Of a stretch of DNA of 64,000 nucleotides, positions 1 through 62,270 are shown piece after piece (the stretch's first letter is position 1; every line of letters starts with the position of its first letter). The position numbers and the translations under genes were made by a program. The stretch is from Mobula hypostoma (taxonomy: Eukaryota), in the NCBI RefSeq assembly GCF_963921235.1, contig NC_086097.1, positions 115,384,001 to 115,448,000 on the forward strand, given 5' to 3'. Below the pieces are notes generated by a model that saw only the letters and a list, made by a program, of their open reading frames with translations, did no database searches and was not told the DNA's origin.

Positions 1-7
1 ATATTTT

Positions 8-102
8 CCTGATGAAGGATCTTTGCCCAAAACATTGACAGTTAATTCTTTCCATAGATTCTGCCTGACCTGCTGAGTTCCTCCAGCATTTTGTGTGTGT
101 TA
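8..102 (+). repeat. Penelope 3' tail fragment with degenerate hammerhead motif
   Basis: cctgatgaagg...cccaaaacattgac followed by ctgcctgacctgctgagttcctccagcattttgtgtgtgtt, homologous to the Penelope tail at 35110-35200. Confidence 0.75.
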
Positions 103-8300: not shown

Positions 8301-8368
8301 ATGGCAGATCAACTAATGATCCCACTGGTGATAGTACAGGACAGTTAACACCTTAGTCCGCGTGTATT
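5301..8368 (+). mobile_element. R2-superfamily (Hero-like) non-LTR retrotransposon with RLE endonuclease, 5' truncated and disrupted
   Basis: PGPNG, FRPIS, WLDLANAYGSVPH, GIPMGCAISP and AFMDDL RT motifs; zinc knuckle remnant CAACGEKGTLQHILS; RLE motif RPDIIVW...ELTVPWE...RKLTKY; about 280-bp 3' UTR. Confidence 0.88.
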
Positions 8369-18300: not shown

Positions 18301-18469
18301 GAGCCAGGAGAAATGCAACCATGGTTGCCACCACTACCATATATGCATATCCTACCTGCAAAAGAGCTTGTGGGTCCAGGATAGGACTGTATAGTCATCA
18401 AAGACCTCACCGTTAAAGGAGTGGACGTCATCATTGGATTTCGATGGACAACCAAAGAGAAGAGAAGAC
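15307..18469 (+). mobile_element. RTE-clade LINE with internal RT deletion, pseudogenised
   Basis: About 1-kb 5' UTR; APE motifs IDIAALSETR, SAYAPT, DFNARVG, TDHR; RT start LPESQCGFR...FVDLSKAFD; C-terminal C2H2 remnant (C)PTCKRACGSRIGLYSH; (GAAGA)n tail; atagg repeated on both flanks. Confidence 0.9.
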
Positions 18470-22490: not shown

Positions 22491-22775
22491 TTCACACACA
22501 AGCACTCATCCCATTTTTCTTCTGTATCCCCATCAACTTCTGCCACCTTCGCCCTTGCCTCGCACACCTACCCACACATATCGATAGACACACATCAATT
22601 CTTCTACCACCCAGGTACACCGGGGAAACCTACATTAGCTAATTAATCTATCACTCTTTGGCTTGTGAGCAGACAGCTGAGCAATGGGGGAATACATACA
22701 GTCTCAGTGAGAACATGTATAAGCCCTAAAGAAAGCATCCAATCTCATGATCAAACCTGGTTCTCTCAAACAGTA

Positions 22776-23071
22776 ACACGAGGAAATCTGCAGAAGCTGG
22801 AACTTCAAGCAACACGCATATAAGTTGCTGGTGAACGCAGCAGGCGAGGCAGCATCTCTAGGAAGAGGTACAGTTGACGTTTCGGGCCGAGACCCTTCGT
22901 CAGGACTAACTGAAAGAAGAGATAGTAAGAGATTTGAAAGTGGGAGGGGGAGGGGGAGATCTGAAATGACAGGAGAAGACAGGAGGGGGAGGGATGGAGC
23001 CAAGTTCAGTGAAACCATCTCTCACTGCTCCCCATCTGTAATTTCTTCGGCTCTTCTACTTTTCGACCACA
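22776..23071. mobile_element. Penelope derivative: minus-strand 3' tail with HHR joined to plus-strand ORF N-terminal piece
   Basis: About 22807-23000 matches 52244-52440; about 23002-23071 encodes FSETISHCSPSVISSALLLFDH, matching the 1040-aa ORF N-terminus in opposite orientation. Confidence 0.9.
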
Positions 23072-23074
23072 TTT

Positions 23075-23868: not shown

Positions 23869-26108
23869 AATGAACTGGTGAGGGACAGTGACCACCGCTC
23901 CCTGGCCTTTAGCATTATCATGGAAAAGGATAGAATCAGAGAAGACAGGAAAATTTTTAATTGGGGAAGGGAAAATTATAAGGCTATAAGGCTAAAACTT
24001 GTGGGTGTGAATTAGGATGATGTTTTCACAAGGAAATGTACTATGGACATGTGGTCGATGTTTAAGGATCTCTTGCAGGACCTCTTTTTCCCCAGTGAGG
24101 AAGATAAAGAATGGTAGGGTGAAGGAACCATGGGTGACAAGTGAGGTGGAAAATCTAGTCAGCTGGAAGAAGACAGCAGACATGAGGTTTAGGAAGCAAG
24201 GATCAGATGAGTCTATTGAGGAATATAGGGTAGCAAGAAAAGAACTTAAGAAGAGGTTGATGAGAGCAAGAAGGGAGCATGAGAGTGCCTTGGTGAGTAG
24301 AGTAAAGGAAAACCCCAAGGCATTTTTCAATTATGTGAAGAACAGAAGGATGACAGGAGTGAAGGAAGGATCGATTAGAGATAGGGTGGGAAGATGTAAC
24401 TGGAGGCTGTGGAAGTGAGCGAGGTCCTCAATGAATACTTCTCTTCGGTATTCACCAATGAGAGAGAACTTGATGATGGTGAGGACAATATGAGTGAGTT
24501 TAATGTTCTGGGGCATGGTGATATTAAGGGAGAGGAGGTGTTGGAGTTGTTAAAATATATTAGGATGGATAAGTCCTTGGGGCTTGACGGAATATTCCCC
24601 AGGCTGCTCCACAAGATGAGGGAAGAGATTGCTGAGCCTTTGGCTAGGATCTTTATGTCCTCGTTGTCCATGGGAATGGTACCAGAGGATTGGAGGGAGG
24701 CGAATGTTGTCCCCTTGTTCAAAAAAGGTAGTAGGGATAGTCCAGGTAATTATAGACCAGTGAGCCTTGCGTCTGTGGTGGGAAAGCTGTTGGAAAAGAT
24801 TCTTAGGGATAGAATCTATGGGCATTTAGAGAATCATGGTCTGATCAGGGACAGTCAGCGTGGCTTTGTGAAGGGCAGATCGTGTCTAACAAGCCTGATA
24901 GAGTTCTTTGAGGAGGTGGCCAGGCATATAGATGAGGGTAGTGCAGTGGATGTGATCTATATGGATTTTAGTAAGACATTTGACAAGGTTCCACATGGTA
25001 GACTTATTCAGAAAGTCAGAAGGCATGGGATCCAGGGAAGTTTGGCCAGGTGGATTCAGAATTGGCCTGCCTGCGGAAAACAGAGGGTTGTATTGGAGGG
25101 AGTACATTCGGATTGGAGGGTTGTGACTAATGGTGTCCCACAAGGGTCGGTTCTGGGACCTCTACTTTTCATGATTTTTATTAACGATCTGGATGTGGGG
25201 GTAGGAGGGTAGTTTGGCAAGTATGCAGATGACAGAAAGGTTGGTAGTGTTGTGGATAGTGTAGAGGATTGTCGAAGATTGCACAGAGACATTGATAGGA
25301 TGCAGAAGTGGGCTGAGAAGTAGTAGATGGAGTTCAACCCGGAGAAGTGTGAGGTAGTACACTTTGGAAGGACAAACTTCAAGGCAGAGTACAAAGTAAA
25401 TGGCAGGATACTTGGTATTGTAGAGGAGCAGAGGAATCTGGGGGTACATGCCCACAGATCCCTGAAAGTTGCCTCACAGGTAGTTAGGGTAGTTAAGAAA
25501 GCTTATGGGGTGTTAGCTTTCATAAGTCGAGGGATAGAGTTTAAGAGTCATGAGGTAATAATGCTTCTCTATAAAACTCTGATTAGGCCACACTTGGAGT
25601 ACTGTGTCTAGTTCTGGTCGCCTCACTATAGGAAGGATGTGGAAGCATTGAAAAAGGTAGAGGAGATTTACCAGGATGCTGCCTGGTTAAAGAGTATACA
25701 TTATGATCAGAGATTAAGGGAGCTAGAGCTTTACTCTTTGGAGAGAAGGAGGATGAGAGGAGACATGACAGAGGTATACAAGATATTAAGAGGAGTAGAT
25801 AGTAGACAGCCAGCGCCTCTTCCCCAGGGCACCACTGCTCGATGCAAGAGGAAATGGCTTTAAGGTAAGGAGTGGAAAGTTCAAGGGGGATATCAGAGGA
25901 AGGTTTTTTACTCAGAGTGGTTGGTGTGTGGAATGCACTGCCTGAGTCAGTGGTGGAGGCAGATACATTACTGAAATTTAAGAGACTACTAGACAGGTAT
26001 ATAGAGGAATTTAAGGTGGGGGGTTATATGGGAGACAGGGTTTAAGGGTCAGCAGATCAATGTGGGCTGAAGGGCATGTACTGTGCTGTACTATTCTATG
26101 TTCTATGT
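23869..26108 (+). mobile_element. CR1 copy B, 5' truncated, nested in CR1 copy A
   Basis: 267-aa RT ORF 24409-25212; tail attctatgttctatgt; AACT at 23865-23868 repeated at 26109-26112, where copy A resumes. Confidence 0.88.
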
Positions 26109-27065
26109 AACTTGGAAGCATAAATTGGAAACAGATGTTCTCAGGGACGCATACAGAAGAAATGTGGCAAATGTTCAGAGGATATTTGCGTGAGGTTCTG
26201 AGTAGGTACATTCCAATGAAACATGGAAAGGATGGTAGGTTACAGGAACCGTGGTGTACAATGGCTGTTGTAAATCTAGTCAAGAAGAAAAGAAGAGCTT
26301 ACGAAAGGTTCAAAAAACCAGGTATTGATAGGAATCTGGAAGATTATAAAGCTGACAGAAAGGAGCTTAAGAATGAAATTAGGAGAGCCAGAAGGGGCCA
26401 TGAGAAAGCTTTGGTGAACAAGATTAAGGAAATCCCCAAGACATTCTACAAGTATGTGAAGTGAAAGAGGATAAGATATGAGAGAATAGGAACAATCAAG
26501 TGTGACAGTGGAAAAGTGTGTATGGAACCACAGGAAATAGCAGATGTACTTAATCAATACTTTGCTTCAGTATTCACTACAGAAAAGGATCTTGACTACT
26601 GTAGGGATGACTTGCAACAGACTGAAATGCTTGAGCATGTAGATGTTAATGAAGAGGATGTGCTGGAGCTTTTGGAAAGCATCAAATTGGATAAGTCACC
26701 AGGACCGGATGAGATGCACCTCAGGCTACTGGGGGAAGCGAGGAAGGAGATTGCTGAGCCTTTGGCAACAATCTTTGCATCATCACTGAGGACAGGAGAG
26801 GTTTCGGAGGATTGGAGGGTTGCGGATGTTGTTCCCTTATTCAAGAAAGGGAGTAGGGATAGCCCAGGAAATTATAGACCAGTGAGTCTTACATCAGTGG
26901 TTGGTAAGGTGATGGAGAAGATCCTGAGAGGCAGGAATTATGAACATTTGGAGAGACATTATATGATTAGGAATCGTCAGCATGGCTTTGTCAAAAGCAG
27001 GTTGTGGCTTATGAGCCTGATTGAAGTTTTTGAGGATGTGACTAAACACATTGATGAAGGTAGAG

Positions 27066-27640
27066 TCATAGATCATAGTCATAGTCATAGTCATAGTCAT
27101 ACTTTATTGATCCCGGGGGAAAATGGTTTTTGTTACAGTTGCACCATAAATAATAAATAGTAATAAAACCATAAATAGTTAAATAGTAATATGTAAATTA
27201 TGCCAGTAAATTATGAAATAAGTCCAGGACCAGCCTATTGGCTCAGGGTGTCTGACCCTCCAAGGGAGGAGTTGCAAAGTTTAATGGCCAAAGGCAGGAA
27301 TGACTTCCTATGACGCTTTGTATTGCATCTCGATGGAATGAGTCTCTGGCTGAATGTACTCCTGTGCCCACCCAGTACATTATGTAGTGGATGGGAGACA
27401 CTGTCCAAGATGGCATGCAACTTAGATAGCATCCTCTTTTCAGACACCATCGTGAGAGAGTCCAGTTCCATCCCCACAACATCACTGGCCTTACGAATGA
27501 GTTTGTTGATTCTGTTGGTGTCTGCTACCCTCAGCCTGCTGCCCCAGCACACAACAGAAAACATGATAGCACTGGCCACCACAGACTCGTAGAACATCCT
27601 CAGCTTCATCGGCAGATGTTAAAGGACCTCAGTCTCCTCA
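27066..27640 (-). mobile_element. Rex1/Babar-type LINE 3' end with (ACTATG)n tail
   Basis: ORF MFYESVVASAIMFSVVCWG...SHPLH...RHRKSFLPLAIKLCN; (CATAGT)n at 27067-27101; interrupts the CR1 between gatgaaggtagag and tatggatttcagc. Confidence 0.85.
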
Positions 27641-29422
27641 TATGGATTTCAGCAAGGCATTTGATAAGGTACCCCATACAAGGCTTATTGAGAAAGTAAG
27701 GAGGCATGGGATCCAAGGGGACATTGCTTTGTGGATCCAGAACTGGCTTGCCCACAGAAAGCAAAGAATAGTGGTAGATGGTCATATTCTGCATGGAGGC
27801 CAGTGACCCGTGGTGTGCCTCAGGGATCTGTTCTGGGACCCCTACTCTTTGTGATTTTTATAAATGACCTGGATGAGGAAGTGGAGGGATGGGTTAGTAA
27901 ATTTGCTGATGACACAAAGGCTGGAGGTGTTGTGGATCGTGTGGAGGGCTGTCAGAGGTTACAGCGGGACATTGATAGGATGCATAACTGGGCAGAGAAG
28001 TGGCAGATAGAGTTCAACCCAGATAAGTGTGAAGTGGTTCATTTTGGTAGGTCAAATATGATGGCAGAATATAGTATTAATGGTAAGACTCTTGGCAGTG
28101 TGGAGGATCAGAGGGATCTTGGGGTCCGAGTCCATACGACACTCAGAGCTGCTACGCAGGTTGACTCTGTGGTTAAGAAAGCATATGGTGCATTGGCCTT
28201 CATCAATCATGGGATTGAGTTTAGGAGCCAAGAGTTAATGTTGCAGCTATATAGGAGCCTGGTCAGACCCCACTTGGAGTACTGTGCTCAATTCTGGTCA
28301 CCTCACTACAGGAAGGATATGGAAATCATAGAAAGGGTGCAGAGGAGATTTACAAGGATGATGCCTGGATTTGGGAGCATGCCTTATGAGAATAGGTTGA
28401 GTGAACTGTGCCTTTTCCCCTTGGAGCGACGGAGGATGAGAGGTGACCTGATAGAGGTGTACAATATAATGAGAGGCATTGATCATGTGGATAGTCAGAG
28501 GCTTTTTCCCAGGGCTGAAATGGCTAACACAAGAAGGCATAGCATTAAGGTGCTTGGAAGTAGGTACAGAGGAGATGTCAGGGGTAAGTTTTTTACGCAG
28601 AGAGTGGTGAGTCCGTGGAATGGGCTGCCAGCAGCGGTGGTGGAGGCGGAAACGATAGAGTCTTTTAAGAGACTCCTGGATGGCTACATGGAGCTTAGAT
28701 AAATAGAAGGCTATGGGTAAAGCCTAGGTAGTTCTACGGTAGGGACATGTTCGGCACAGGTTGGTGGGCTGAAGGGGGTTTATTGTGCAGTAGGTTTTCT
28801 ATGTTTCTATATATATCAGTGATAATAAACATGATTCTGGTTCTGATTCAATATCCTTGGTCTGGAAAGGTTGTTTACTCAAAGCAACAGAAAGATGACA
28901 AATATTGTTACTATTACCAGAAAAATGTATTCAGTTTGTTATGATATAAAGAAAGATTATAATATATCCTTGTTTATTTATCTTGCATTTTTCTCGCATT
29001 ATTTTCTATCAAGTTAGTCTGAATTCAATTTTCAATCATTTGTGTTAATACTTTACAAAAAATAAAGATATTCTCATTTCATAATTAAAGTTATTACTTT
29101 GTTGAAGGCAAATTTTTTGGAGCAGCAAGTTTCTTGCTTGGTAAGGATATTTATTTCTTACAGATTAAGGTGAATTTGTTTTTTGGCAAATCTACATTTG
29201 ATTAGATTTTACTGGATTTTGCTATGTGCAAGTATTAATGTGCAAGAATAAAAAATGATCATTTGTAAAGTGTATGACTGTTCAAAGTTCCTTCTAACTT
29301 CGAGCTTTCTCAGAATAACATGTGTACTGGAATCACATTGCTCTAAGAACCATTAGAACAGGTCATAACCTCTGCCTATAGTCTTCTGCAAGATCCATTT
29401 TACTAGTACCAGATTACCAAAC

Positions 29423-30774
29423 TGTCATGGTCCAGATCGGGGTCCCTTTAAACTTACTTTGTTTATGTTACGATCCAGACCGTTGACTCCCTGTTTCCCG
29501 TGTCCCTCAGCTTTGGTGATTGGAGGCAATTACTCTCGACAGAACCAGTAGTTTATAGTCTCCGGCTTTCAGCCGTATGGGGCGGGAGCATCTGCAAAGT
29601 CACCAAAGGTATGGCGTGCCAATGTCATCTGGTCGGAGCAAGCCTAGTCTCCGCTCGAAGCCAGCACCGGTAATTTGCCTTTCCTCACCAGAGCAACCCT
29701 GTCAAGTTACCTTGCCAAAGCGAGCCTGCAAAGTTTCCTCACCGAGGTGGGTCCGTCAGTTAACCCGCCGGAGGGAATCAAGAACCGCTGTCTACTGTTC
29801 CTGGGCCAAGTCGAGAGCTTGCCACTACCCGGAGGCTCCAACTCAAGTCCTGGCTCCAAGGGCATTCAAGTTCCAAGTCAAGTCCTGGCCCTGGTGGCTT
29901 CCAAGTTCCGAGTCGAGTCCTGGACCTGGCGGTCTGTGATTCCTGTCCTATCCCCCCATCTGAATCTCTTCTCTGACCCTCTCACCTCTAGCCCTTGTCT
30001 GCAGCCCTCGCCTGCACTTCAGTCTAGTTCTATCGCCGGAGATAGATAGGTACTGTCTGGTGTTCTTTCGTGTTGGTCTTGTCTTGTCCTCGCCTCCGTG
30101 GGCTAAGTCAGGCCATCTTGCCGTTGCTCCATGGGGGGTCATGTCTTGTCTTGTCTTGTCCTCGCCTCTGTGGGGTAAGTCAGGCCATTTTGCCGTTGCC
30201 CCGCGGGGGGTCATGAGTCCCGTCCCTATGTCCTGTACCCAAGGAGGGGTCCTGGCTCTCTGTTCTGTGTGTGAGTCCCGGCCCTATGTTCTGTACCCAA
30301 GGTGGGTTCCCGGCTCTCTGTTCTGTGTGTGAGTCGCGGCCCTATGTCCTGTTCCCAAGGAGGGGACCCGGCTTTGTGGTCTGTGTACGTGTCCATGGTT
30401 CCATGTACCTGTTCTCCAGAGACCGAGGCTCTGTGTTCCCATGTTCCTCCTCTCTCTAGCCCATGTCATGTCCTTGCCTGGTTCTGGGGTCCGAGCCCGA
30501 GGCAAGACCCAGGTACTGGGTCCTTGCCCAGTCTCTGGCTCCGAGTCCTACCCTAGCCTCTTCATGTCTACTCTAGTTCTGGGGTTCCGATTCTGAGTCC
30601 AAGCCCAGACCCTTGTCCCAGCCTAGTCGTAGTCCTGAGTCCTTGTCCAGTTTGCTACTCCTGCTCCTGCCTTGCTCTCCTGGTATCAAACAATAAACTA
30701 AATTGAATTAACCTCATAAGATATGTCTTGCATTTCGGTCCACCCTTGCTCCCAATGCCCTCACCACTGTGACA
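29423..30774 (+). mobile_element. Solo LTR (Gypsy/BEL-type), 1352 bp
   Basis: TGTCA...TGACA termini; 5-bp TSD CAAAC (29418-29422 / 30775-30779); AATAAA at 30692; internal tandem repeats. Confidence 0.88.
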
Positions 30775-34640: not shown

Positions 34641-35239
34641 TCACAACACGCTGGAGGAACTCAGCAGGTCGGGCAGCATCCGTGGAAACGATGAGTCGAC
34701 GTTTCGGGCCGGAACCCTTCATCAGGACTGTAGAGGGAAGGGGCAGAGGCCCTATAAAGAAGGTGGGGGGAGGGTGGGAAGGAGAAGGCTGGTAGGTTCC
34801 AGGTGAAAAACCAGTAAGGGGAAAGATAAAGGGGTAGGGGAGGGGAAGCAGGGAGGTGATAGGCAGGAAAGGTGAAGAAGGAATAGGGGAAAACACAATG
34901 GGTAGTAGAAGGAGGCCGAACCATGAGGGAGGTGATAGGCAGCTGGGGGAGGGGGCAGAGTGAAATAGGGATAGAGGAAGGGAGGGGGAGGGAATTACTG
35001 CAAATTGGAGAATTCTATGTTTATACCAAGGAGCTAGAGACTACCTACCAGCCTTCTCCCACCCTCCCCCCCCCACCTTCTTTATAGGGCCTCTGCCCCT
35101 TCCCTCTACAGTCCTGACAAAGGGTTCCGGCCCGAAACGTCGACTCATCGTTTCCACGGATGCTGCCTGACCTGCTGAGTTCCTCCAGCGTGTTGTGAGT
35201 GTTGCTTTGACCCCAGCATCTGCAGAGTATTTTGTATTT
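34641..35239. mobile_element. Penelope fold-back insertion with two HHR motifs and a 14-bp TSD
   Basis: About 155-bp inverted arms (34641-34797 / 35043-35198); TSD ACAAAGGATCCCAC at 34627-34640 and 35240-35253. Confidence 0.92.
34694..34729 (-). ncRNA. Minimal hammerhead ribozyme motif (intact core)
   Basis: AGUC CUGAUGA A GGG UUCCGG CCC GAAAC GUC GACU: stem I, CUGANGA core, stem II, GAAA, GUC triplet. Confidence 0.8.
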
Positions 35240-38178: not shown

Positions 38179-39096
38179 CAGTGAACTCGGATTAATTGGG
38201 AAACATAGGGAACAATATATTTTGGCCCAATTAAATGGCTGCCCAATTAGTCAGTTTCATGGAAATAGTTAAAGTATTAAAAAGACAAACTACCATTCAA
38301 CTGAATAGCAAATTATGTATTATTGTGTATAGTAAATGAAATACAGAATAAATTAGAACATTAATGATATTACTAATATACTATAAAACTTTGTTTTTGT
38401 TCCGAATACTTACTGACGGAGGAATTCATCCAGTGTTTGCTGCGTTCTTTTGATTGACTTTAAATGAACAAAATCAACGCAGAAACCTGGTGCTGTTAAT
38501 CTGGTCCTGACGAAGGGTCTTGGCCTGAAATGTCGACTGTACTTCTTCCTATTGATGCTGCTTGGCCTGCTGCGTTCACCAGCATTTTGTGTGTGTTGCT
38601 GTTAATGAACAGGCTTGATACAATGCTTCCAACAATTGGAGCCTCCAAGTCTTCATTTTCATTGTAATATTCAAGGTAATTGTTGATACCTTCAAATTCT
38701 TCACAGTTCTTAACTTGTCAAAGTAGTGGAATCGTTTCGTTTTCACTGCTGGCCATTTCTGGCACCTCCAAACCTGAATGCTTGAAACTGTCGTGAGCAA
38801 AACGGTTCTAAGTGTCTTACTGTTTATTTCTTGCTGATTATCAGTATAAAAAATCATTCTGTTTTGAACACACACAACTGACATTATTTAAAAAAGTTCA
38901 CTTGAAGCACAACATAGTGTCTAATGGCCACGCAGGTTCACGCCACTGACATTAGTTAGAAGCTATTCAGCAACAGTCTCCTGTCCAAATTAAGTGTATT
39001 GTGTCCTAAATAAACAAATGGAATTAGTTTCTCTTCTTTAAGAGTTGTCTTAAATAAGCAGCTGCCCTGATTAACCGATTGGCCAATCAAATGTTG
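38179..39096. mobile_element. Tc1/mariner-pogo (Tigger-like) non-autonomous DNA transposon
   Basis: TA|CAGTG start; subterminal motif gctgccc..atta near both ends; degenerate right end tg|ta; sits in an old Penelope tail. Confidence 0.5.
38501..38596 (+). mobile_element. 96-bp Penelope mini-element (HHR + tail) with a 10-bp TSD
   Basis: ggtcctgacgaagggtcttggcctgaaatgtcgact...; TSD TGCTGTTAAT at 38491-38500 and 38597-38606. Confidence 0.88.
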
Positions 39097-39689
39097 TACT
39101 CGCTCTGTGCTCTCAGTCCTAATGCATGTTCTTGACCCAGAAAATTGACTATTCTTTTCCCTGCTCGACTTGTTGAGTTACACCAGCAGTTTTTTTTTTT
39201 GCCCCAGGATTCCATCATTTGCAGTCTCTAGTATCTATCCCAAACCAGGTCTTTGTTTAGCTGGTATAAGAGGTCTGTGGACATAAAACACAGCAATCCT
39301 TGAGTTTTGTGATCAATTAATGTGCCCTGTCCAAGGCATTTTAATGATCTATATACTGGGACTCATAATTCTCTTTGGGTTTCTACTGCAAATGACTATT
39401 TTTGAAATGTAGAAAGTAATCTATGTGATTTAGATCTGCCGTACATTTGCCTGCAGTGAAATCCATTCGTTAAAATTTTGTCCTTAAAGTTAATCTATTA
39501 ACTCATTCAAGACCAGTGGTGATAACAGGAATCACTTGCAAATCTCTACTGAAGTCCAGGTTTCATGCTCTGCACTGGTGAAAATTAGCACAAAATCTTG
39601 TGCCCAGCTATCAGTGCTTTGGCTGCCTTTCTGGTGCTCTGGTGGGCTCCTTATAGAGTTTTACTGGACATGAGAATGTTTTATTGGCC

Positions 39690-42600
39690 TTCAATGTCTC
39701 ACGCTTCCAACCCCTAAGCGCAGACTAAGGACCCTCTATTTACTTCTGGAACAAAAACCCAACCAGTTCCCCTCTGCTAACATTCTCGTCCAACTTGCAG
39801 AAACTGTTCTTATCTTCCACAAATTCTCCTTTTAATCACCCCATATTCTGCAAGTCAAATGAAGAGTCATGGGTCCTCACATGAACTCCAGCAATGTCTG
39901 TTTTTCTTTTTCCTTTTGTTGGTTATGTGGATTATTCTTTGTTCCAAATGTGCTTTGGCACCCCTCTCCAATTCTTTCTTCATTATATCATGTTTACATC
40001 TGTGCTGCTTCTTGCACCTCAGTGGAATCAATCTCATAAGCTTTTCCACCTACTTCCAGCATCCCCTCAAATTCACCTGGACTATTTCTGAGAGTCCCCT
40101 TCCTTTTCTGAATCTCTGTGCTACCATCTCAGGAGACAAACCTAATACCTACAATGATTAAAGCACTGAGGAAGACTGAACGCATCGAGGTGAGTGTGGA
40201 TGGTGAGCAAGTGTTCAGTGCCATCTACCAGCTGCCGGAGTCGGTGTCTGTGCGTGGCGGTCTCTCGCTCGCTACTCCTGAGGGAAGGTTTTCTCATTTG
40301 AGTAATCTCTTTCTCCCTCGATGATGCCAGAGCAAGGTGTAATCAACGGGGATTGTGGATTTGGAATCTAATTCAGGTTTATGATGTGTTCTAGTTTCTA
40401 GTTCCAGTTCTGGTCACTTTTTTTGTTGACACTTCTGAGTGATTTTTGAATCGGCCAGCCTGTAGATAATGAACACAGATGTGAACTGTACTGAAATGTG
40501 CCTTTTGATTTTGTGTTTTATATTCCGTGTTTTTGCTCTTTTTTTTGTTGCTGTTTGCACATTTTTTGCTTGTGGGGGGAGGGGGTTTTGATGTTTGATG
40601 TTTTTCTTTGAATAGGTTGGTTCCATGGTTCTTCTTTGGTTCCTGACTGTCTGTGGGGATATATTGCATACATACTTTGGTAATAAATGTACTTGGATTC
40701 TTTGAAATCTACGGACTCCCACAGCTACTTCAACTACCCCCCCCTCCCACTGTGCTTCTGGAAGTACAATATCTCTTTCTCTGTCTCTCACTGTCTGCAG
40801 CATCTGTTATCGAGATGAGGTTTTCCACACTGGGACTTCTGCAATGTCCTCCTTCTGGTAACATGACGTCCCATCTGTCAAAGTCAATGAAGCTCTCACA
40901 TACATGTCTTACATTTCCCACACTTCTGCTTTCAACATCTTCCACCCCCTACTTGGACAGAACAGAAACAGAGATCCACTAGTCTTTACGTTTCACTCCG
41001 CCAGCTTCTGCATCCAACATATTACCTCTTGCCACTTCTGGCTGCTCCAATAGGATCCCAATGCCATCCACACCTTTCCCCTTCATCACTTCCTACCCAC
41101 CACTCCTCATCCTAGAGTCACAGAAATGGGCCCTTCAGCCCATCTAGTCCATGCCGAGCCATTTAAACTACCTACTCCCATCGAACTGCGAACCAAAGCC
41201 CCCCAAACCCAAGCCATTCATGTACCTATCTAAACATCTCTTAAACATTAAATTCAAGCTCGCATGCACCACTTGTACTGACAGCTTGTACCACACTATC
41301 ACGACCGTCTGAGTGAAGTTTTCTCTCATGTTCCCCTTTCACCTTTTCACCGTTCACCCTTAACCCATGATCTCTACTTGTAGCCCCACCCAACCTCCGT
41401 GGAAAAAGCTTGCTTGTGTTTACCCTATTTACACATCTCATAATTTTGTATACTTCTATCCAAACTCCTCTCGATCTTCTATGTTCCAAGGAATGAGGTC
41501 CTAACCAATTCAATCTTTCCATATAATTGAGATCCTCCAGGACCAGCAATAATCTTGTAAATTTTCTCTGTACTCTTTCAACCTTATTTTCCTGAAGGCA
41601 GGTGACTAAAACTGCATACAATATTCCAAATTAGGCCTTACCAGTGTCTTATACAACTCAACATGACATCTCATCTCCTGTACTCAATACTTTGAGTACC
41701 AATGGCAATGTGCCTAAAGGTTTCTTTATGGCTCTATCTACCTGTGACAGCATTTTAAATGAATTATGGGCCTCTATTCCAAAATGCCTTTGTTCCACTA
41801 CACTCTTCAGTGCTCTACCATTCACTGTGTAAGATCTACTCTGGTTAGTCCTACCAATTTGCAACACCTCACACTTGTATGCATTAAAGTCCATCTTCCA
41901 TTTTTCAGCCCATTTTTCCAGTTCATCCAGATCCCGCTGCAAGTTGGGGTAGTCTTTGACACTGTCCATGACACACCATCTCTTAGTGTCATCCACAAAT
42001 GTGCTGATCCAGTTAACCAGATTATCATCCAGATTGTTGATATAGATGACAAACAACAGCGGACCCAGCACTGATCCTTGCAGCACTCCTCTAGCCACAG
42101 GCTCCAGTCAGTGAGGCAACCATCTACTACCATTCTCTGGCTTCTCCCACAGAGACAATGTTTAATCCAATATACTACCACATCTTGAATGCCGAATGAC
42201 TGAACCTTTTTGAGAAACGTCCCATGTGGGACCTTGTCAAAGTCTTTGCTAAAGTCCATGTAGACAAGAGCCGCTGCTTTGTCTTCATCAACTTTCCTGG
42301 TAACTTCCTCAAAAACTCTATAAGATTGGTTAGATATGACCTACCATGTACGAAGCCATGTTGACTATCCTTCATCAGTCCATGACTATCCAAATACTCA
42401 TATACCTTGTCATTAAGAATACTTTCCAATAACTTTCCCATTATTGATGTCACGTTCACCGTCCTATATTTTCTTGATTTATTTTTAGAGTCTTTCTTAA
42501 ATAGCAGAATAGCATTGGCTATCCTCCATCCTCTGGTAACTATCCTATCACTAAGGATGATTTAGATATCTCTGGTAGGGCCCTGGCAATTTCTTCTTGA

Positions 42601-43500
42601 AACCACAGGATGTTCTACACCTCCTCTAACACCACCCTGCAGGAACCTAAACCCCCTCCCCCAAATCCTGGTGAGGCAGGGATTCACACGCAGCTCCTCT
42701 AACATTGTGTATTTTATTTGGCGCTTTTGATGTGCCTTATTTACATGAACAAAACCAAATTTAGACTAGGTGACCATTTTGCGGTGTACCTGTGTTCTGT
42801 CCACATTGCCTTCCTGAGCTTTTGATTTTATGTCAGTTTAACTCCCCATTCCTGTTTTCACATGGACCTGCCTGTCCTCGGTCTTTGCCACTGCCAAGGT
42901 GAGGCTTAAAACAAACTAGAAAAACAGCACTTCTATTCCACTTGGGTAGCCTACAAGCCAATGGCTTGAACTTTGGATTTTTCAGTTTCAGGTAATGTAC
43001 TCTTCTTGTGTTCCTTTTCCACTTTCCACCACTCTATCCAGGTTCACTTGAGATTTCTTCCCATTTCCTTTCCTCATTACCATGACTATATACCATTTAC
43101 TGTATAGACCTATCTCTGTCACTTCTCCTTGGGTGTATCTTTCTTGTCCCCTTATTCAACTGGTTCTATCTGTCTGTAATCCTTTGCTTACCTGATTCCA
43201 CCTATTACTTATCAGCCTCCGTCTCTAACTCTTCCTACTCCTCTCCCTTATCTAGCTTCATTGACCTAAATATTATTTTCTCTTTGCTTATGCTTTCACC
43301 TATCAACAACCAACCCTCTGTCTCCTTCCTCTTTCTAGCTCCATTTGCCCACCATCCCCTCCTCCTCACCTGGTTCTTCTACCATCTGCCGCCCTCTTGT
43401 AGTTTTATGTATTTACTGCCTTCTCCACACACTCAGTCCTTCTGCAGGGTTTTGACCTGAGATGTTGACCGTTCTTTTGATTCCACAGTCTTCTCTTGCT
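39690..43500 (+). mobile_element. Old Penelope-like element, interrupted by a SINE-like repeat (about 40155-40700) and a CR1 (41115-42595)
   Basis: HPLKFTWTISESPLPFLNL matches HPALKFTWSISNTSLPFLDL of the intact ORF; EN-region remnant 42680-42995; CT-rich tail and degenerate HHR near 43435-43470. Confidence 0.75.
41115..42595 (-). mobile_element. CR1 RT and 3' end
   Basis: MDFSKDFDKVPH, GVLQGSVLGP, FVDDTK and ERVQRKFTR on the minus strand. Confidence 0.9.
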
Positions 43501-44199: not shown

Positions 44200-44880
44200 C
44201 CTTAATATGATGGACTCAAGTGGCCTCTGACAATCAAGTCCAGCTCTTGGCTTTCATAAACAACAGGAATTCTGCAGATGCTGGAAATTCAAGCAACATA
44301 CATCAAAGTTGCTGGTGAACGCAGCAGGCCAAGCAGCATCTCTAGGAAGAGGTGCAGTCGACGTTTCAGGCCGAGACCCTTCGTCAGGACTTCACCAGCA
44401 ACTTTGATGTATGTCTTGGCTTTCATATGTGGCTTAGCTACTAAGCCAAGCCAAACCATTTCTTCTAACAGGAGAAGGGCCAAAGGCAGGTTACTGGTGC
44501 CTTAAAACCAGTCGCTTTGGGCAGATGGGGCTCGTCAGCTGTGGTGGGCAGCTCATCTAGGAGAAGGAAAACGCTGATCTCAAACCCCTGCTGCCTTACG
44601 GCCATGCCCACTTATGGGGAAGGTTTTAGGAGTAAACTCCAAGGGAAAAATCCTGAGCTGGAGTTCCTAAGGCAATCCTACGTTGAGTTCAATGCTGAAT
44701 GGCAACTCCTGCAATACTGCTGGTGCCAAATTATTTTGGTCTTTGCTGTTCCTTTGTGTTCAAAGGGGGAGCTTGCTACAGGGGCAATAGCTTGCTCTCC
44801 GCTTCATACTGCCCTGGCTTGTGTACTTAACCTGCTGGGAAGCATCTTCCATTGTTGACCCTGACCAACGGAGGCCTCAT
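44200..44880 (+). repeat. Unclassified SINE-like or RTE-related repeat, interrupted by a Penelope hairpin
   Basis: Continuous sequence across the TSD at 44245/44414; cagctc...tgtggct motif loosely shared with 9340-9357. Confidence 0.35.
44259..44413. mobile_element. 155-bp Penelope fold-back mini-element with HHR and a 14-bp TSD
   Basis: 24-bp perfect IR (44296-44319 / 44391-44414); HHR 44356-44391 on minus; TSD TCTTGGCTTTCATA at 44245-44258 and 44414-44427. Confidence 0.92.
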
Positions 44881-45919: not shown

Positions 45920-47690
45920 CAGATAAATATGAACGAAGGTAAGACTGAACCTTGGGGCAAAGTTCTAAATTAGAGGAAAGTCAAATTACAACAGTATTAG
46001 GCATGAAAGGGGGAGAATACTCTCGGAGTGGCAATTATTGGGGAAGTCCACATCTGATATGTGTGTGTTGTTTAAAAGTCAGCTTGTCATAAGGTGATGG
46101 CTGGGAATGGACCCAAGTGCAAGACACAGACACTGAAGTACTAAGGATAGGACTAGGATACAGGGTGAGAGATAGGACATGGACATAAAAACCGGGAACC
46201 TGGAACAGGACTGGACAAGAGAGTTAGGAGCCCTGGCTTGGACTCCCAGCCAGAGACTGGACAAGGACACAGAACCTGGGTCTTGCCTCTGGCTCGGACC
46301 CAAGAACTAGGCAAGGGTGTGACTTGGCTGGCAGGCAGGACGAGGCTGGAGTTCAGAGACTTGAGGCAAAGCTGGAGACCAGGGACTTGAGACTTGGGGA
46401 CTTGAAGCTTGGCTTGGGGCGAGGCTTGAGGCTTGGGGTGTTGAAGCTCCTCCTGGGCAGGGCGTGGTACTCCTGTTCAGGGCGCGGATCTCCAGCAACG
46501 GAGGCGAGAGGCAGGAAGGGACAGAACCAACTGTAGGGTAACGGCAATCTGACCTGACTTACCTGACGGAGGCAAGGGACAGGAAAGGAGCTAGGTACAG
46601 GGTGGCTCCAAGACAAGACTTAGGTGAAACGAGGCGAGAGTTACCAGCAAGACAAGGCAAGGCTTCAGGCAATGCAAGGCGAGACAAGAACTTCAGGCGA
46701 GGCGAGAGTTACCAGCAAGACAAGGCAAGAGTTACCGGCAAGACAAAGCAAGGCTTCAGGCGTGGAAACAGAAGGCAGAGGAAGGGATACAAGGAGTAAG
46801 GACAAGAACAATCCAGAAGCCACACCCTGGTCTCTGGAGGTATTTATGCAGCCAGCCCCAACGAGAATCAGCTGCCTCAATTAGTGCTCAACAGGAACAG
46901 AAACAGGGTAGAAAGGAAAACCTGGAGCAAGGGTCGATGGACTGGACCGTGAACTGGAATGCAGACCTCACGGACTGGACCGTGACACAGCTGGCCAGAA
47001 TTTAGGATCAACGTTTTCCTATGGGGAAGAATGGCAATGTCTGGGAAGGTTAAATGAAGAGTGATGTTGCAAATTCAGTCAAAAATGAGAAGTATACATA
47101 AAGTTAAAGAAGCTGAAATCAAACAAAGCTCTTGAGGAACATAAAGGAAGGATACAGGGAATTAGGATGGCTAAAACTAGCCATAAAGTGCCCTTGCTGA
47201 GTAGGATATGGAAAATCCCAAGACATTTCACAAAAATATTACAAACGGTAGATTAGCTATGGAATGGAAGGGATTACTCAAGGGCTGAGGATAGAATTTA
47301 TGCCTGGAACAAAAGGAATTGACGAAGGTGCTAAATAAGTACTTCACTTTGTCATACACTAAGGAGAAGGAAATGTATAATGAGATAAGGAGAGGTACAC
47401 TAATACTCTAGAGCATGATGATATCAAGAAGGAGGAGGACTTGGTCACTTGAAGAACTTAAGCTGAATAAGTCCCCATGATCTGATAGGATAGATAATGA
47501 ACAATCTGCTCTCTTGCCTTTCTCTATAACATGCGATCTTTTGATCCTTTTAGGTGCAGGTGAATTCTAAGAGGATTGGAAAATAGTAAATGTTTTAGAG
47601 GGGTAACAGGAATAATTCAATAAATTCTGTCTGGTAAGCCTTAGGTCAGTAGGAGGGAAACTACTGAAGAAAAATAGACTTACGAGGGAT
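45920..47690 (+). mobile_element. Old degraded CR1 ORF2 (interrupted by a solo LTR)
   Basis: DNA similarity to CR1 ENPKTF, VLNKYF and NKSP regions. Confidence 0.6.
46085..46987 (-). mobile_element. Solo LTR (Gypsy/BEL-type), 903 bp
   Basis: TGTCA...TGACA termini; 5-bp TSD CAGCT (46080-46084 / 46988-46992); ends homologous to 29423-30774 in reverse orientation. Confidence 0.88.
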
Positions 47691-51170: not shown

Positions 51171-52308
51171 TCTAGTTTTTGTTTATTCCCAGTGATAGTA
51201 ATCAGAAGAGTGCGTGTCCTGGATGGTAAAGGTCCTTAATGATGGATATTGCCTCCTTAAGCCACCACCTTTTGACAGCAGTGAGGCGAGTGCCCGTAAT
51301 GAATCTGGCTGTGTCTACTCCACTTTCCCTACTGTATGTACACACTGGCTGTTAATACGAACAATGTAATTAATTGTATGTTTTGATGTATATGTGATAA
51401 GTAAATCTGAATCTGAACCCTCTGCAGCCTCTTTTGATCCCGGGTATTGAAGCTTCCACAACAAGTAGTGATGCAGTCAGTCATATTGGTTCTATGAAGA
51501 TATGAACGTTGAAATTTAATAACATTGGACGTGTAGTATATAATGAAGAACTTGAGCTAGGTTTATGCCAAAATATACGAGATATTAGCTCAAGGTCAAT
51601 GTTCAACTTTAAGCAAGGTTATCAACATATAGAAATCTGATAGGAAAACTATCTCACCATCTTTCCACCTCTTGTTCTTGACTACCACCAACTCATCCTC
51701 TGCATCCCAATGGATCCTACCACCAAACGTACCTTCACCTCACCCCATCTCTCCGCTTTCCACAAGAATCCCTCCCTCCCTGATTTCCTTGTCCATTTGT
51801 CCCTCCCCACTCCTGCCAACATAGCTCTTCAGATCACTGAGGCACATAAGCCTCCAAAGCACAACAAGGTTGTGGTCCTCTTGGTGGTCAGATGTACTGT
51901 GAAAGCAGTTATTTCCTGATAACCATGATCATAATAAATGGCGGTGCAGGCTCGAAGGGCCAAATGGCCTACTCCTGCACCTATTTTCTATGTTTCTATG
52001 TTTCTATGAATTTTTAGCTGTAAAATCCACTGGGCTGATTTGCAGTGCGTTCAAAGACTGGGTTCCTATATAGTCATGACAAGCATTGAATCCAGAGCAA
52101 TCTTGCCTGCTGGAACTAGCAGCGGATGAGGGTAAGAGGAACAGCAGGACAATATTCATAAAGTCACCTGTCATAATAAGTCATGGGTATGAAGGGGAAA
52201 ATACTCCAATTGTTATCATCCTAAAATACACCAAGGGAAATGGAAGCAACACACATCAAAGTTGCTGGTGAACGCAGCAGGCCAGGCAGCATCTATAGGA
52301 AGAGGCGC

Positions 52309-52344
52309 AGTCGACGTTTCAGGCCGAGACCCTTCGTCAGGACT
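52309..52344 (-). ncRNA. Minimal hammerhead ribozyme in the Penelope 3' pseudo-LTR
   Basis: AGUC CUGACGA AGGGUCUCGGCCU GAAAC GUC GACU; predicted cleavage between 52313 and 52312. Confidence 0.8.
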
Positions 52345-52641
52345 AACTGAAGGAAGAGTGAGTAAGGGATTTGAAAGCTGGAGGGGGAGGGGGAGATGCA
52401 AAATGATAGGAGAAGACAGGAGGGGGAGGGATAGAGCCGAGAGCTGGACAGGTGATAGGCAAAAGGGGATACGAGAGGATCATGGGACAGGAGGTCCGGG
52501 AAGAAAGACGGGGGGGGGGGGGTTGACCCAGAGGATGGGCAAGACGTATATTCAGAGGGACAGAGGGAGAAAAAGGAGAGTGAGAGAAAGAATGTATGCA
52601 TAAAAATGAGTAACAGCTGGGGTACGAGGGGGAGGTGGGGC

Positions 52642-55686: not shown

Positions 55687-55876
55687 CACCGGAAGAGGCT
55701 TCGCAGTAGTGAATTTAAACGCAAACAACAGGAATTCTGCAGATGCTGGAAATTCAAGCAACACACATCAAAGTTGCTGGTGAACGCAGCAGGCCAGGCA
55801 GCATTAGGGTGCAGAACTGCTATTTCTCTTGTATTTCATGCTATTTAACTTTCCTATACTTGCTTGTATTTTTATA

Positions 55877-58000
55877 TAATCAGAGTCAGGTTTAATATAA
55901 CCAGTGTACATCGTGAAATTTGTTAACTTTGCAGCAGCAGTACAATGCAATACATGATAAATATAGAAAAATTGAATTACAGTAAATATATATATATATA
56001 CTAAACAGTTAAATTAAAATATGTAGGGCAAAAGCAGAATTTAAAGAAAGTAGTGAGGTAGTGTTCATGGGTTTAATGTCCATTTAGGAATTTTATGGCA
56101 GAGGGCAAGGAGCTGTTCCTGAATCATTGAGTGTATGCCTTTAGGCTTCTATACCTCCTTCCTGATGGTAGCAATGAGAAGAGGGCGTGTACTGGGTGGC
56201 GGGGTCCTTATTGATGGACACTGCCTTTCTGAGGCACTGCTCCTTGAAGATATCTTGGATACTACAGAGGTTATTAGTCAAGGTGGACCTGACTAATCTT
56301 ACAACTTTCAGCAGCTTACTTCGATCCTGTGCAGTAGCTCTCCATAACAGACGGTGATGTAGTCTGTCAGAATTCTCACCACGGTACATCTGTAGAAGTT
56401 TTCAAGTGTTTTAGGTGACAAATCATATCTCCTCAAACTGTAAATGAAATGTAGCTGCTGTCTTGCTTTCTTTATAGCCGCATCAATATGTGGGTCCAGG
56501 TTAAGTCCTCAGAGATATTGACAACAAGGAGCTTGCAATTTCTCACTCTCTCCGCTTGTGATCCCTCTGTGAGGATTGATGTGTATTCCTCGTCTTACCC
56601 TTTCTGAAGTCCACAACAACCTTTTGGCACACAACATTGAGTGCAGGGTTGTTGCTGCAACCCCACTCAACTAGCTGGCATAACTCGCTCCTGTACGCCC
56701 TCTTGTGTCCATCTGAGATTCTGCCAGCAATGGTTGTATCACCAGAAAATTTATGGATGGCATTTGATCTATGCCTAGCCACACTGTCATGGGTGTAGAG
56801 AGAGTAGAGCAGTGGGCTAAGCACACACCTCTGAGGTGCGCCAGTATTGCTTATCAGGGAGGTGAAGGTGTTATTACTAATCCATAGAGATTGTGGTCTT
56901 TCAGTTAGAAAGTTAAGGATCCATTTGGAAATGGAGGCAGAGAGGCCCAGGTTCTGTGGCTTTTTGAGCAGGACTGTAGGAATGAAGCTTTTAAACACTG
57001 AGTTATAGTCAGTAAACAGCATCCTGACATAGGTATTAGCATTGTCCAGATGATCCAAGGTCGCGTGGAGAGCCATTAAGAGCGTGTCTGCCTTAGACCT
57101 ATTGTGGCAATAGGTAAATTGCAGTGGTCCAAGTCCTTTCTCAGGCAAGGATTGATTCTAGCCATGATCACCCTCTGAAAGTACTTCATCACCGTAGATG
57201 TGAGAGTGACTGGACAATAGTTGTTGAGGTAGCTCACACTGCTCTTTTTGGGCACCGGTATAATTGTTGCCCTTTTAAAGCAAGTGGGAACTTCTAACTG
57301 TAGTGGTGAGAGATTGAAAATGTCTTTGAATAACCTGCCAGTTAGCTGGCATGTTTTCAGAGCCTGTCCAGGTACTCCATCATGGCCTGCTGCTTCACGA
57401 GGGTTCACCTTCCTGGAAGGCCGCCTGACATCGGCTTCCAAGACAGAGATCTCAGGGTCACCGGATGTAGCAGGGATTCTCACATCTGAGGTTATGTTCT
57501 CCTTTTCAAAGTGGATATAGAAGGCGTTTACCTCATCTGGCAGTGAAACATCACTGTCATTCATGATCACGAGGAAATCTGCAGATGCTGGACTTTCAAG
57601 CAACCCACATAAAAGTTGCTGGTGAACACAGCAGGCCAGGCAGCATCTCTAGGAAGAGGTACAGTCGACTTCATCCTGACGAAGGGTCTCGGCCCGTAAC
57701 GTCGACTGTACCTCTTCCTAGAGATGCTGCCTGGCCTGCTGCATTCACCAGCAACTTTTATGTGGGTTGCCTGTCATTCATGATGTTGGGTTTCACTTTG
57801 TAGGAAGTAATGGCCTGAAAGCTCTGCCAGAGTTGACGTGCATCCGCTGCCACCTCCAAACTTGCTTGGAATTGTTTCTTAGCTCTTGAAATAACCCTCC
57901 ACATGTTATATCTGGTTTTCTTGTACAGATCTGGGTCACCAGACTTAAATGTCATAGGTCTAGCTCAGGAAGACTATGAACCTCCTGGTTCATCCATGGC
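55877..58000 (-). mobile_element. Rex1/Babar LINE (RT + 3' end), degraded, with a Penelope insertion
   Basis: CFKRATIIPVPKK, YCPVTLTS, YVRMLFTDYNSVF, GAPQRCVLSPLLYSLYT, KFSGDTT. Confidence 0.9.
57568..57770. mobile_element. 203-bp Penelope fold-back mini-element with HHR and a 14-bp TSD
   Basis: 70-bp IR (57600-57669 / 57701-57770); HHR core in the loop (57672-57707); TSD CTGTCATTCATGAT at 57554-57567 and 57771-57784. Confidence 0.93.
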
Positions 58001-61764: not shown

Positions 61765-62270
61765 CTACACACAACGAGCTGAAGGAACTCAATGGATCAA
61801 ACAGCATCTATAGAGGGAAATGTGTGGATTCAGGTGAGGTAAGTGATCGGCAAATGAGGATGAGGAGATGGATGGAGGCCAGCTGGATCAACAAAAAAGG
61901 GTAAAGGGACAGATGGGAGAAGTAACTGGCTCCCATAACCCTATCTCTTTCCCCTCCACATCCTCTCCATCTGCCCACTGGCTCCTACCTCCACTTCCAT
62001 AGTACACATTCCTCTACCATCAAGCTCCATCATCTTTATCCCTTAGTCACCTTCACTTTTTTCAACTTCCACCTTCTTGTATCATTTCCACTCTCCTAGT
62101 CTCTCATCTGCCAATCAATCCCTCACCCAAATCCTCCAGCTCTTGCTCCATGCCTTCTCTGCATCATTTCATAGTGCTATCTCCCTTCTCTTGTTCAGTC
62201 CAGATGATGGGTTTTGACCTGAAACATCAACTATCTATTCCCCTCCATAGATACGGTCTGACCTATTGTT
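61765..62270. repeat. Old Penelope tail fragments in inverted arrangement
   Basis: Minus-strand tail (gaaggaactc...cagcatctatagaggga) then CT-rich plus-strand tail with degenerate HHR cagtccagatgatggg...cctgaaacatcaact. Confidence 0.55.

What the first reader, a model, noticed from the sequence alone, without database searches (positions are those of the whole stretch)
52309..52344. Minimal hammerhead lacking stem III, with a palindromic ACGU suited to dimer cleavage
Seen: AGUC-CUGACGA-A-GGG(UCUCGG)CCU-GAAAC-GUC-GACU. Stem III is reduced to the self-complementary ACGU. Related copies lie at 22872-22907, 34694-34729, 35110-35145, 38503-38538, 44356-44391 and 57672-57707, with degenerate ones near 8, 39115, 43435 and 62196. 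The stem II loop varies (UCUCGG, UUCCGG, UCUUGG) while the core is mostly kept. Known: minimal type I HHRs of Penelope-like elements have been proposed to cleave as dimers. Inference: this is a functional ribozyme processing tandem transcripts, present at about 11 copies in 64 kb.
Basis: partly seen in the sequence, partly recalled or inferred. Interest (0 to 1): 0.7.

Follow-up and report, generated by a model that had tools for sequence, protein, structure and literature searches.

The report
Known Penelope hammerhead, copied mostly uncut
This is an ordinary copy of a tiny, predicted self-cutting RNA motif already described from Penelope-like jumping genes; many inserted copies in this genome begin at the motif's first letters and few at the predicted cut, so the RNA is likely copied into DNA mostly uncut.

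Summary
The motif is real (minus strand, 52309-52344). All 11 listed copies exist (null mean 0.08), but only 3 of 11 are fully intact. It lies 298 nt 3' of an unbroken 1014-aa RT, Zn-linker, GIY-YIG frame: a young Neptune-type Penelope-like element (PLE), host likely a cartilaginous fish. It fits the minimal hammerhead of PLE pseudo-LTRs (PMC4209133). The genome holds 37,653 exact 30-nt cores. 'Processing tandem transcripts' is not shown. This element has one ribozyme and the window has no tandem, although true tandems (3514-3516 nt units) exist elsewhere. Genome-wide, agreement with the element breaks off just before the ribozyme's first two bases in 8.5% and 8.0% of copies (neighbours 2.5-3.8%). 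Only 1.3% have a purine before the cut (about 2.5% scaled). Target duplications abut these starts. Likely the RNA begins at the ribozyme and most templates are uncut; cutting is likely weak or conditional. No cleavage or RNA-end data were obtained. The scan noted this motif and this start-site pattern many times before, in this genome and others. Ordinary finding with a modest, testable mechanistic angle.

The parts
52309..52344 (-). Minimal type I hammerhead motif. Stem I 52344-52341 with 52312-52309; core CUGACGA 52340-52334; unpaired A 52333; stem II 52332-52321; GAAA 52320-52317; ACGU palindrome 52317-52314; predicted cut between 52313 and 52312.
   Evidence: Sequence; fits the descriptor of PMC4209133
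52642..55686 (-). Unbroken ORF, 1014 aa from the first Met: N-terminal part, DKG motif, RT (YIDD at 660), CX2-5CxxC linker (881), GIY-YIG endonuclease (917-991). Neptune-type PLE.
   Evidence: RVT_1 E 3.4e-5 and GIY-YIG E 1e-3, both below Pfam's gathering score; 1337 relatives; best named hit Chiloscyllium punctatum, 71%
52236..52641 (-). 3' UTR and 3' pseudo-LTR holding the ribozyme; ends about 69-77 nt past the cut, the shorter of the two preferred 3' ends
55748..55804 (-). Partial 5' pseudo-LTR, a direct repeat (96%) of 52292-52236. It starts at +21, so it lacks the ribozyme and the likely start site. No target duplication seen.
52347..52359 (-). Upstream arm predicted to pair with the catalytic core and the 5' arm of stem II (masking hairpin); beats shuffles only in this young family
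   Evidence: 0 of 150 shuffles reach it; not significant in 7 of 7 copies of other families
44258..44391 (-). Short same-family insertion from -32 to +102 with an identical, intact motif (44356-44391)
38503..38600 (+). Short same-family insertion from -31 to +68; palindrome lost
57572..57773 (.). Head-to-head inverted pair (-3..+95 on minus; -30..+70 on plus, motif 57672-57707 with A13 changed)
22775..23074 (.). pLTR fragment (-129..+101, motif 22872-22907, minus) joined to an inverted piece of the ORF start
34694..35145 (.). Two copies of a second family (loop UCCG), on opposite strands: 34694-34729 intact, 35110-35145 with G8 changed
5..40 (+). Decayed copy of an older family (G12 changed)
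39115..39150 (+). Decayed copy, 4 core changes
43435..43470 (+). Decayed copy, 4 core changes
62197..62232 (+). Decayed copy (U4 changed)

Best explanation
The motif is the minimal hammerhead in the end repeat of a young Neptune-type Penelope-like retrotransposon; it likely sits at the very 5' end of the element's RNA and is predicted to cut only weakly or conditionally, so most RNA copied into DNA is likely uncut. Shown: the anatomy, the link to the ORF, retention of the motif across families with unrelated flanks, two preferred 3' ends, and a two-base peak of copy starts at -32/-31 with little at the cut (+1). Inferred: transcription starts at A-32 (window 52344). The element's RT starts inside the RNA at about +67 or +105, as shown in vitro for the anole element PAc. 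It either runs off the nearby 5' end, giving 100-140 bp stubs and head-to-head pairs, or starts in the downstream repeat and copies through the ORF. Cutting would need a partner (a second ribozyme pairing by ACGU, or the element's protein). It would remove the first 32 nt from an RNA whose start codon lies at +139, and so would likely damp expression or retire the RNA rather than make the template.
For: Genome-wide exact counts with the 3' end fixed at -2: mismatch just upstream in 1621 of 42,530 (start -30, 3.8%), 3256 of 40,909 (start -31, 8.0%), 3193 of 37,653 (start -32, 8.5%), 1085 of 34,460 (start -33, 3.2%), mean 2.5% per base over -35..-38. At the cut, 1065 of 84,083 (1.3%) have a purine at -1. 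Of the first 30 '-32' loci, 1 is a point mutation that reads through and 15 others have an inverted partner. 8 of the 14 without a partner have a 10-15 bp target duplication at or within 5 nt of the start, so the upstream DNA is target and not an exon. In 142 pooled copies anchored downstream of the ribozyme, 10 of 44 plain 5' ends lie at -33..-30 (p=1.5e-6, window chosen after seeing the data) and 1 of 44 at +1; the other 98 were long (43), inverted (40) or had indels (15). 3' ends are bimodal, 53 of 100 at +57..+74 and 45 of 100 at +94..+117, like the two PAc start sites (PMC11167929). Five families clustered on flanks alone (8 clusters; 3 are the young family or its fold-backs) share the motif from exactly -32. 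They vary at N7, loop II and the 11.1 C/U wobble. PMC11167929: the PAc hammerhead needs protein, is not needed for insertion in vitro, and no RNA-seq reads ended at its cut.
Against: No RNA ends were seen. A start site is inferred only from DNA copies and an Inr-like sequence (consensus recalled). The peak accounts for roughly one copy in six or seven; many other ends spread over -60..+9, often at fold-back joints. The cap-derived extra G is weak: 8 of 14 plain loci (p=0.03), 15 of 30 overall, and about a third of the first 100 rows read by eye, which is the chance level. RNA that was cut and re-joined leaves no +1 mark. 4 of 30 copies that carry the ORF start begin at +7/+8, and 5 of 44 plain ends lie at +7..+10 (p=0.015), which could be trimmed cut products. 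The -33 and -1 counts come from different patterns and subfamily mixes, and the -1 count covers purines only. The regulatory role of cutting is untested.
Confidence: 0.62

Rival explanations
1. One reading: two ribozymes in a tandem transcript pair through ACGU and cut out a 3516-nt unit, which is re-joined into a circle and copied as more than one unit length.
For: True tandems exist: L317 and L318 each hold three motifs identical to this one, 3514-3516 nt apart. 21 of 30 ORF-start copies keep an upstream ribozyme. Re-ligation would hide the cut. 4 of 30 ORF-start copies begin at +7/+8. One earlier AI note reports copy starts at the cut in another genome, and a second reports joints clustered around it (unchecked).
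Against: Starts at +1 are rare. There is no genome-wide peak at +6..+8: 3027 matches, 18 of the first 30 being point mutants that read through. The ACGU duplex is weak (-1.7 kcal/mol), an overlapping GUCGAC palindrome across the cut is stronger (-7.5), and the predicted two-copy fold is not a hammerhead. This element has no partner in cis. PAc inserts uncut RNA in vitro (PMC11167929).
Confidence: 0.22
2. The 36 nt are kept as a promoter, splice-acceptor or protein-binding element at the front of the RNA and do not cut in vivo.
For: The block at about +20..+55 is also shared by the families. No two-sided compensatory change was seen among family majorities. The core excess in young copies is not significant when matched for base type. 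One older family carries A6C in its majority. A pyrimidine tract plus YAG ends at -31 in the families. Naiad PLEs thrive without hammerheads (PMC8557442).
Against: The variable positions are those a hammerhead tolerates (N7, loop II, wobble at 11.1). A6C is a described natural, active variant (PMC7151607, abstract). Related PLE motifs cut in vitro (PMC4209133, PMC11167929).
Confidence: 0.08
3. The -32/-31 edge is not a transcription start. It comes from an RT stop or fold-back at the hairpin formed by -47..-35 with the core, or from splicing to the acceptor ending at -31.
For: About half of the -32 copies are inversion joints, and the predicted hairpin is centred on -33..-30. The acceptor-like sequence is kept across families, and in D. 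virilis Penelope the intron ends at helix I (PMC4209133).
Against: Plain copies with target duplications start there too. None of the 30 loci carries a direct upstream piece of the element as a spliced exon. Splicing predicts most ends at -30, which has the smallest excess. An RT moving 3' to 5' would stop at the 3' foot of a hairpin, not in its loop (inference). Older families without the hairpin also show copies starting at -32 (read by eye).
Confidence: 0.08

Closest known systems
Minimal hammerheads (min-HHR) in pLTRs of metazoan PLEs, including fish Xena, Poseidon and Neptune (Cervera and De la Pena 2014, PMC4209133; parts 1-2 of 4 read, supplements not seen)
   Same: Type I layout, short helix I, unpaired base before stem II, no loop 3, palindromic 15.2-16.2, position in the pLTR, mostly single dispersed copies from truncated elements
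   Different: Stem II is 4 bp (7-8 bp in Schistosoma). The 10.1-11.1 pair is G-U in this subfamily, not G-C. Copy number is far higher than the 4,000-9,000 reported for coelacanth and Xenopus. Cartilaginous fishes are not named in the parts read.
PAc, Poseidon element of Anolis carolinensis (Frangieh et al. 2024, PMC11167929; parts 1-2 of 4 read)
   Same: RT plus GIY-YIG ORF, hammerhead in the pLTR, two preferred 3' ends (tail), uncut RNA apparently the main template
   Different: Other clade (the Zn-finger linker here marks Neptune/Nematis). In PAc the start codon lies inside the ribozyme; here it is 139 nt past the cut. A peak of copy starts at the ribozyme's first base is not reported in the parts read.
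EN+ PLE insertion structure: partial tandems, inverted 5'-truncated copy, 30-40 bp tail (PMC8557442 and PMC3846280, passages read)
   Same: All of these features are seen here
   Different: None of substance; the position of the 5' ends relative to the ribozyme is not given in the passages read
Animal non-LTR retrozymes (bioRxiv 10.64898/2026.07.22.740005; part 1 of 5, passages and Discussion read)
   Same: Type I hammerheads related to PLE pLTRs; reported in one chondrichthyan genome
   Different: Retrozymes are non-coding tandem arrays of 51-972 bp units; this motif belongs to an autonomous, coding element and its dispersed stubs

Membership tests
PLE minimal hammerhead (PMC4209133) | Core CUGANGA, GAAA and UH at the cut | tested here: met
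   no core change; N17 = C
PLE minimal hammerhead (PMC4209133) | Type I layout with a 4-5 bp helix I and a helix II | tested here: met
   Stem I 4/4 (plus one U-G), stem II 4/4. These are possible pairings; the monomer's lowest-energy fold is different.
PLE minimal hammerhead (PMC4209133) | Unpaired base between 9 and 10.1 | tested here: met
   A in this copy and in 138 of 141 placed copies
PLE minimal hammerhead (PMC4209133) | G10.1-C11.1 pair | tested here: inconclusive
   G-U wobble in this copy; C in 72 and T in 65 of 141 copies
PLE minimal hammerhead (PMC4209133) | No loop 3; palindromic 15.2-16.2 | tested here: met
   ACGU at 52317-52314
PLE minimal hammerhead (PMC4209133) | Lies in the pLTR of a PLE | tested here: met
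PLE minimal hammerhead (PMC4209133) | Compensatory changes in the stems | tested here: inconclusive
   Only a one-sided C/U change at 11.1 among family majorities; no distant loci obtained
PLE minimal hammerhead (PMC4209133) | Self-cleavage as a dimer | not testable with these tools
   Needs a bench assay; the pseudoknotted dimer could not be scored by ViennaRNA
Rfam hammerhead families | Match to an Rfam covariance model | tested here: not met
   0 hits at gathering score in the window; no hammerhead family at E<=10 in 52100-52600
EN+ PLE, Neptune clade | Single ORF with RT and C-terminal GIY-YIG | tested here: met
EN+ PLE, Neptune clade | CX2-5CxxC linker between RT and EN (Neptune and Nematis; PMC8557442) | tested here: met
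   Residues 881-889
EN+ PLE, Neptune clade | pLTRs, partial tandems, inverted 5' copy, optional tail | tested here: met
EN+ PLE, Neptune clade | Placement in the RT tree with named Neptune elements (against Nematis) | not tested
   No named reference proteins were obtained; 'Neptune' rests on the linker, the vertebrate host and recalled RT motifs
Non-LTR retrozyme | Tandem array of short non-coding units, each with a hammerhead | tested here: not met
   No tandem repeat overlaps a copy; 14 same-strand pairs within 5 kb among 104 copies share no spacing

The most novel reading that the evidence does not exclude
The PLE minimal hammerhead is a 5'-terminal switch on the element's messenger RNA, not a processor of tandem transcripts. 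The RNA starts at the ribozyme's first base, so stems I and II can form only in the 5' copy (predicted pairing about 0.3 against 0.0). In this young family an upstream arm masks the 3' copy and so protects the RT start sites. Protein- or dimer-assisted cutting would remove the cap and repress the element. The genome's tens of thousands of copy ends map this start to the base.
Probability: 0.25. Interest if true: 0.55.

Novelty: new member of a known kind. Interest (0 to 1): 0.27.

Why it matters
The motif itself is known and ordinary. What PLE hammerheads do in vivo is still open (PMC8557442 calls it unclear). This family is young, has intact frames and perfect tandems, and has more than 37,000 exact cores. 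It gives base-level predictions (RNA start at -32/-31, cut at +1, RT starts near +67 and +105) that one RNA-end experiment can test. A peak of copy starts at the ribozyme's first base did not appear in the papers read (searches). The Lunse et al. paper and all supplements were not seen and may bear on this.

Tried and rejected
Rfam, both thresholds: no hammerhead hit. Monomer folding: not a hammerhead, z=0.0; uninformative for a motif expected to need a partner. Dimer energy: the pseudoknot could not be evaluated. Sequencing runs: no RNA holder listed; only contigs of guessed type, so no RNA start, cut or splice could be read. Distant PLE loci for covariation: none found in metagenome contigs. 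Lunse et al. (PMC5785218) is not held; only its title and the review's passages were seen. Retrozyme reading rejected. Splice-junction origin of the -32 starts rejected for the 30 loci examined. A genome-wide peak at +6..+8 was not found. Masking hairpin as a general PLE feature rejected: it beats shuffles in 1 of 8 copies tested. Cap-derived G: inconclusive. Rows dropped: one search kept 54 of 100 copies and one search kept 71 (ungapped to -60; sites with more than 20% or 10% variants left out). One search used 141 of 221 flank-anchored copies, and placing them needed at most 13 mismatches to the motif, so its pooled frequencies lean towards the motif. L208 was counted with the inverted group. 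One search timed out; one search stopped on an error after printing its counts.

Full report
Observation. The minus strand of 52309-52344 reads AGUC CUGACGA A GGGU CUCG GCCU GAAA CG UC GACU: stem I, core, one unpaired A, a 4-bp stem II, GAAA, then CG-UC with no loop 3. ACGU is self-complementary. Five of 11 have no core change; three keep core, both stems and palindrome. Rfam has no match. Below, +1 is the G after the predicted cut (52312) and -32 is the motif's first base (52344).

What it belongs to. An unbroken frame runs from 55686 to 52642 on the same strand (1014 aa). It has weak Pfam hits to RVT_1 and GIY-YIG, a DKG motif, YIDD, and a CX2-5CxxC linker, which marks Neptune and Nematis PLEs (PMC8557442, passages). 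The best named relative is from Chiloscyllium punctatum, 71% identical, so the host is likely a cartilaginous fish (inference). The element's first 57 nt repeat 52292-52236: a partial pseudo-LTR that starts at +21 and lacks the ribozyme. This element therefore has one hammerhead only.

Abundance and arrangement. The 3.48-Gb genome holds 37,653 exact matches to -32..-2 and 87,537 to +21..+49. In 1.464 Mb (13 blocks picked without looking, plus this window) 104 copies lie within 8 mismatches, about 250,000 if extrapolated. 28 hits pass a strict descriptor there, 27 of them this motif, against 0 in reversed sequence. Same-strand neighbours share no spacing. True tandems exist: two loci each have three identical motifs 3514-3516 nt apart. 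Inverted head-to-head pairs and two preferred 3' ends (53 of 100 at +57..+74, 45 of 100 at +94..+117) are the known PLE signature (PMC8557442 and PMC3846280, passages).

Is the motif under selection? Copies found by their downstream flank alone (221; 141 placed) were clustered on flanks. Five families with unrelated upstream DNA keep the motif from -32, varying at N7, loop II and the C/U at 11.1; other differences between majorities look like CpG decay. No two-sided compensation was seen. One older family has A6C, a described active variant (PMC7151607, abstract). Among young copies the core differs less than the rest (3 of 540 against 57 of 2970, p=0.019), but not significantly once base type is matched (p=0.10 and 0.77). 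The block at about +20..+55 is shared too, so conservation alone does not prove catalysis.

Where do copies begin? If cut RNA were the usual template, copies should begin at +1. They rarely do: 1065 of 84,083 have a purine at -1 (1.3%; about 2.5% if scaled to all bases). Agreement instead breaks off just before -31 in 8.0% and before -32 in 8.5% of copies, against 3.8%, 3.2% and 2.5% at neighbouring positions. The patterns differ in subfamily mix, so the two figures are not strictly like for like. Of 30 loci with a mismatch at -33, one is a point mutant, 15 more have an inverted partner, and 8 of the other 14 have a 10-15 bp target duplication at the start. In 142 pooled copies, 10 of 44 plain ends lie at -33..-30 and 1 at +1. 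Against a simple picture: ends are also spread over -60..+9, often at fold-back joints. 4 of 30 copies bearing the ORF start begin at +7/+8, though no genome-wide peak shows there (3027 matches; 18 of the first 30 read through). An extra G from a cap is only hinted at (8 of 14, p=0.03).

Folding. Alone, the region does not fold as a hammerhead. With upstream sequence, -47..-35 is predicted to pair with the core (masking 0.84; 0 of 150 shuffles reach it). An RNA starting at -32 forms stems I and II with probability about 0.3. Seven copies of other families show no such excess. The ACGU duplex is weak (-1.7 kcal/mol) and an overlapping GUCGAC palindrome is stronger (-7.5), which fits low activity without help.

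Mechanism. Shown: anatomy, family link, copy-end statistics. Inferred: the RNA starts at the ribozyme's first base; RT starts internally at two sites and copies mostly uncut RNA; cutting is weak, needs a partner, and would separate the cap from the start codon at +139. This agrees with PMC11167929 (parts 1-2 of 4): the anole element's hammerhead is protein-assisted, dispensable for insertion in vitro, and leaves no reads at the cut. No RNA data could test either.

Comparison and verdict. Every testable defining feature of the PLE minimal hammerhead is met except the G-C at 10.1-11.1 (G-U here) and covariation (both inconclusive). It is a new member of a known kind, not a retrozyme. I reached the start-site reading before consulting earlier notes (notebook). 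The scan has since proved to hold many notes with the same motif and reading, in this genome and others, and some that report starts at or around the cut in other genomes; these are unchecked AI notes and no support. Other papers seen: PMC6765202 and PMC2377424 (passages); bioRxiv 10.64898/2026.07.22.740005 (part 1 of 5, passages, Discussion). Lunse et al. was seen as a title only. No supplements were read. Interest 0.27.

Noticed in passing
window 52343-52365 (minus) and equivalent sites in other families: A pyrimidine tract ending in YAG lies at the foot of stem I (base -33 is C in 37, T in 30, G in 1 of 68 family members). It looks like a 3' splice acceptor, as in D. virilis Penelope where the intron ends at helix I. 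No donor was found nearby and no spliced copy in 30 loci. The strand is pyrimidine-rich anyway.
   Followed up: partly
G000 sample blocks C40, C12, C18, C21, C36: An older family carries A6C in the core (12 of 141 placed copies have C there, about 9 in one family), a natural variant reported to favour Mn2+ (PMC7151607, abstract).
   Followed up: partly
L183, L194, L197, L198: Four of 30 copies that include the ORF start begin at +7/+8, each with its own flank; possibly trimmed cut products. Unexplained.
   Followed up: partly
window 52310-52315: A second palindrome, GUCGAC, spans the predicted cut and is predicted to pair more strongly than ACGU.
   Followed up: partly
L317 (G000:C21:136337000-136346999), L318 (G000:C2:157227500-157237499): Tandems with three identical ribozymes; L318 includes one unbroken 1043-codon frame.
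   Followed up: partly
G000:C1 first 3.3 Mb: Inverted pairs often have near-symmetric 5' ends (-24/-24, -40/-41, -53/-60), one arm ending near +67 and the other near +105.
   Followed up: no
window 5665-7218, 17307-18416, 24400-25212, 26465-28702, 41822-42340, 56543-57648: Fragments of non-LTR retrotransposon frames; RVT_1 hits for 5665, 24400 and 27692. The one at 56543-57648 adjoins the PLE pair at 57572-57773. Family names were not tested.
   Followed up: no
window 39757-40138 and 51712-51820: Older diverged PLE ORF fragments, 64% and 74% identical to the element.
   Followed up: no
window 29837-30386 and 46450-46752: Clusters of short GC-rich tandem repeats, periods 20-72.
   Followed up: no
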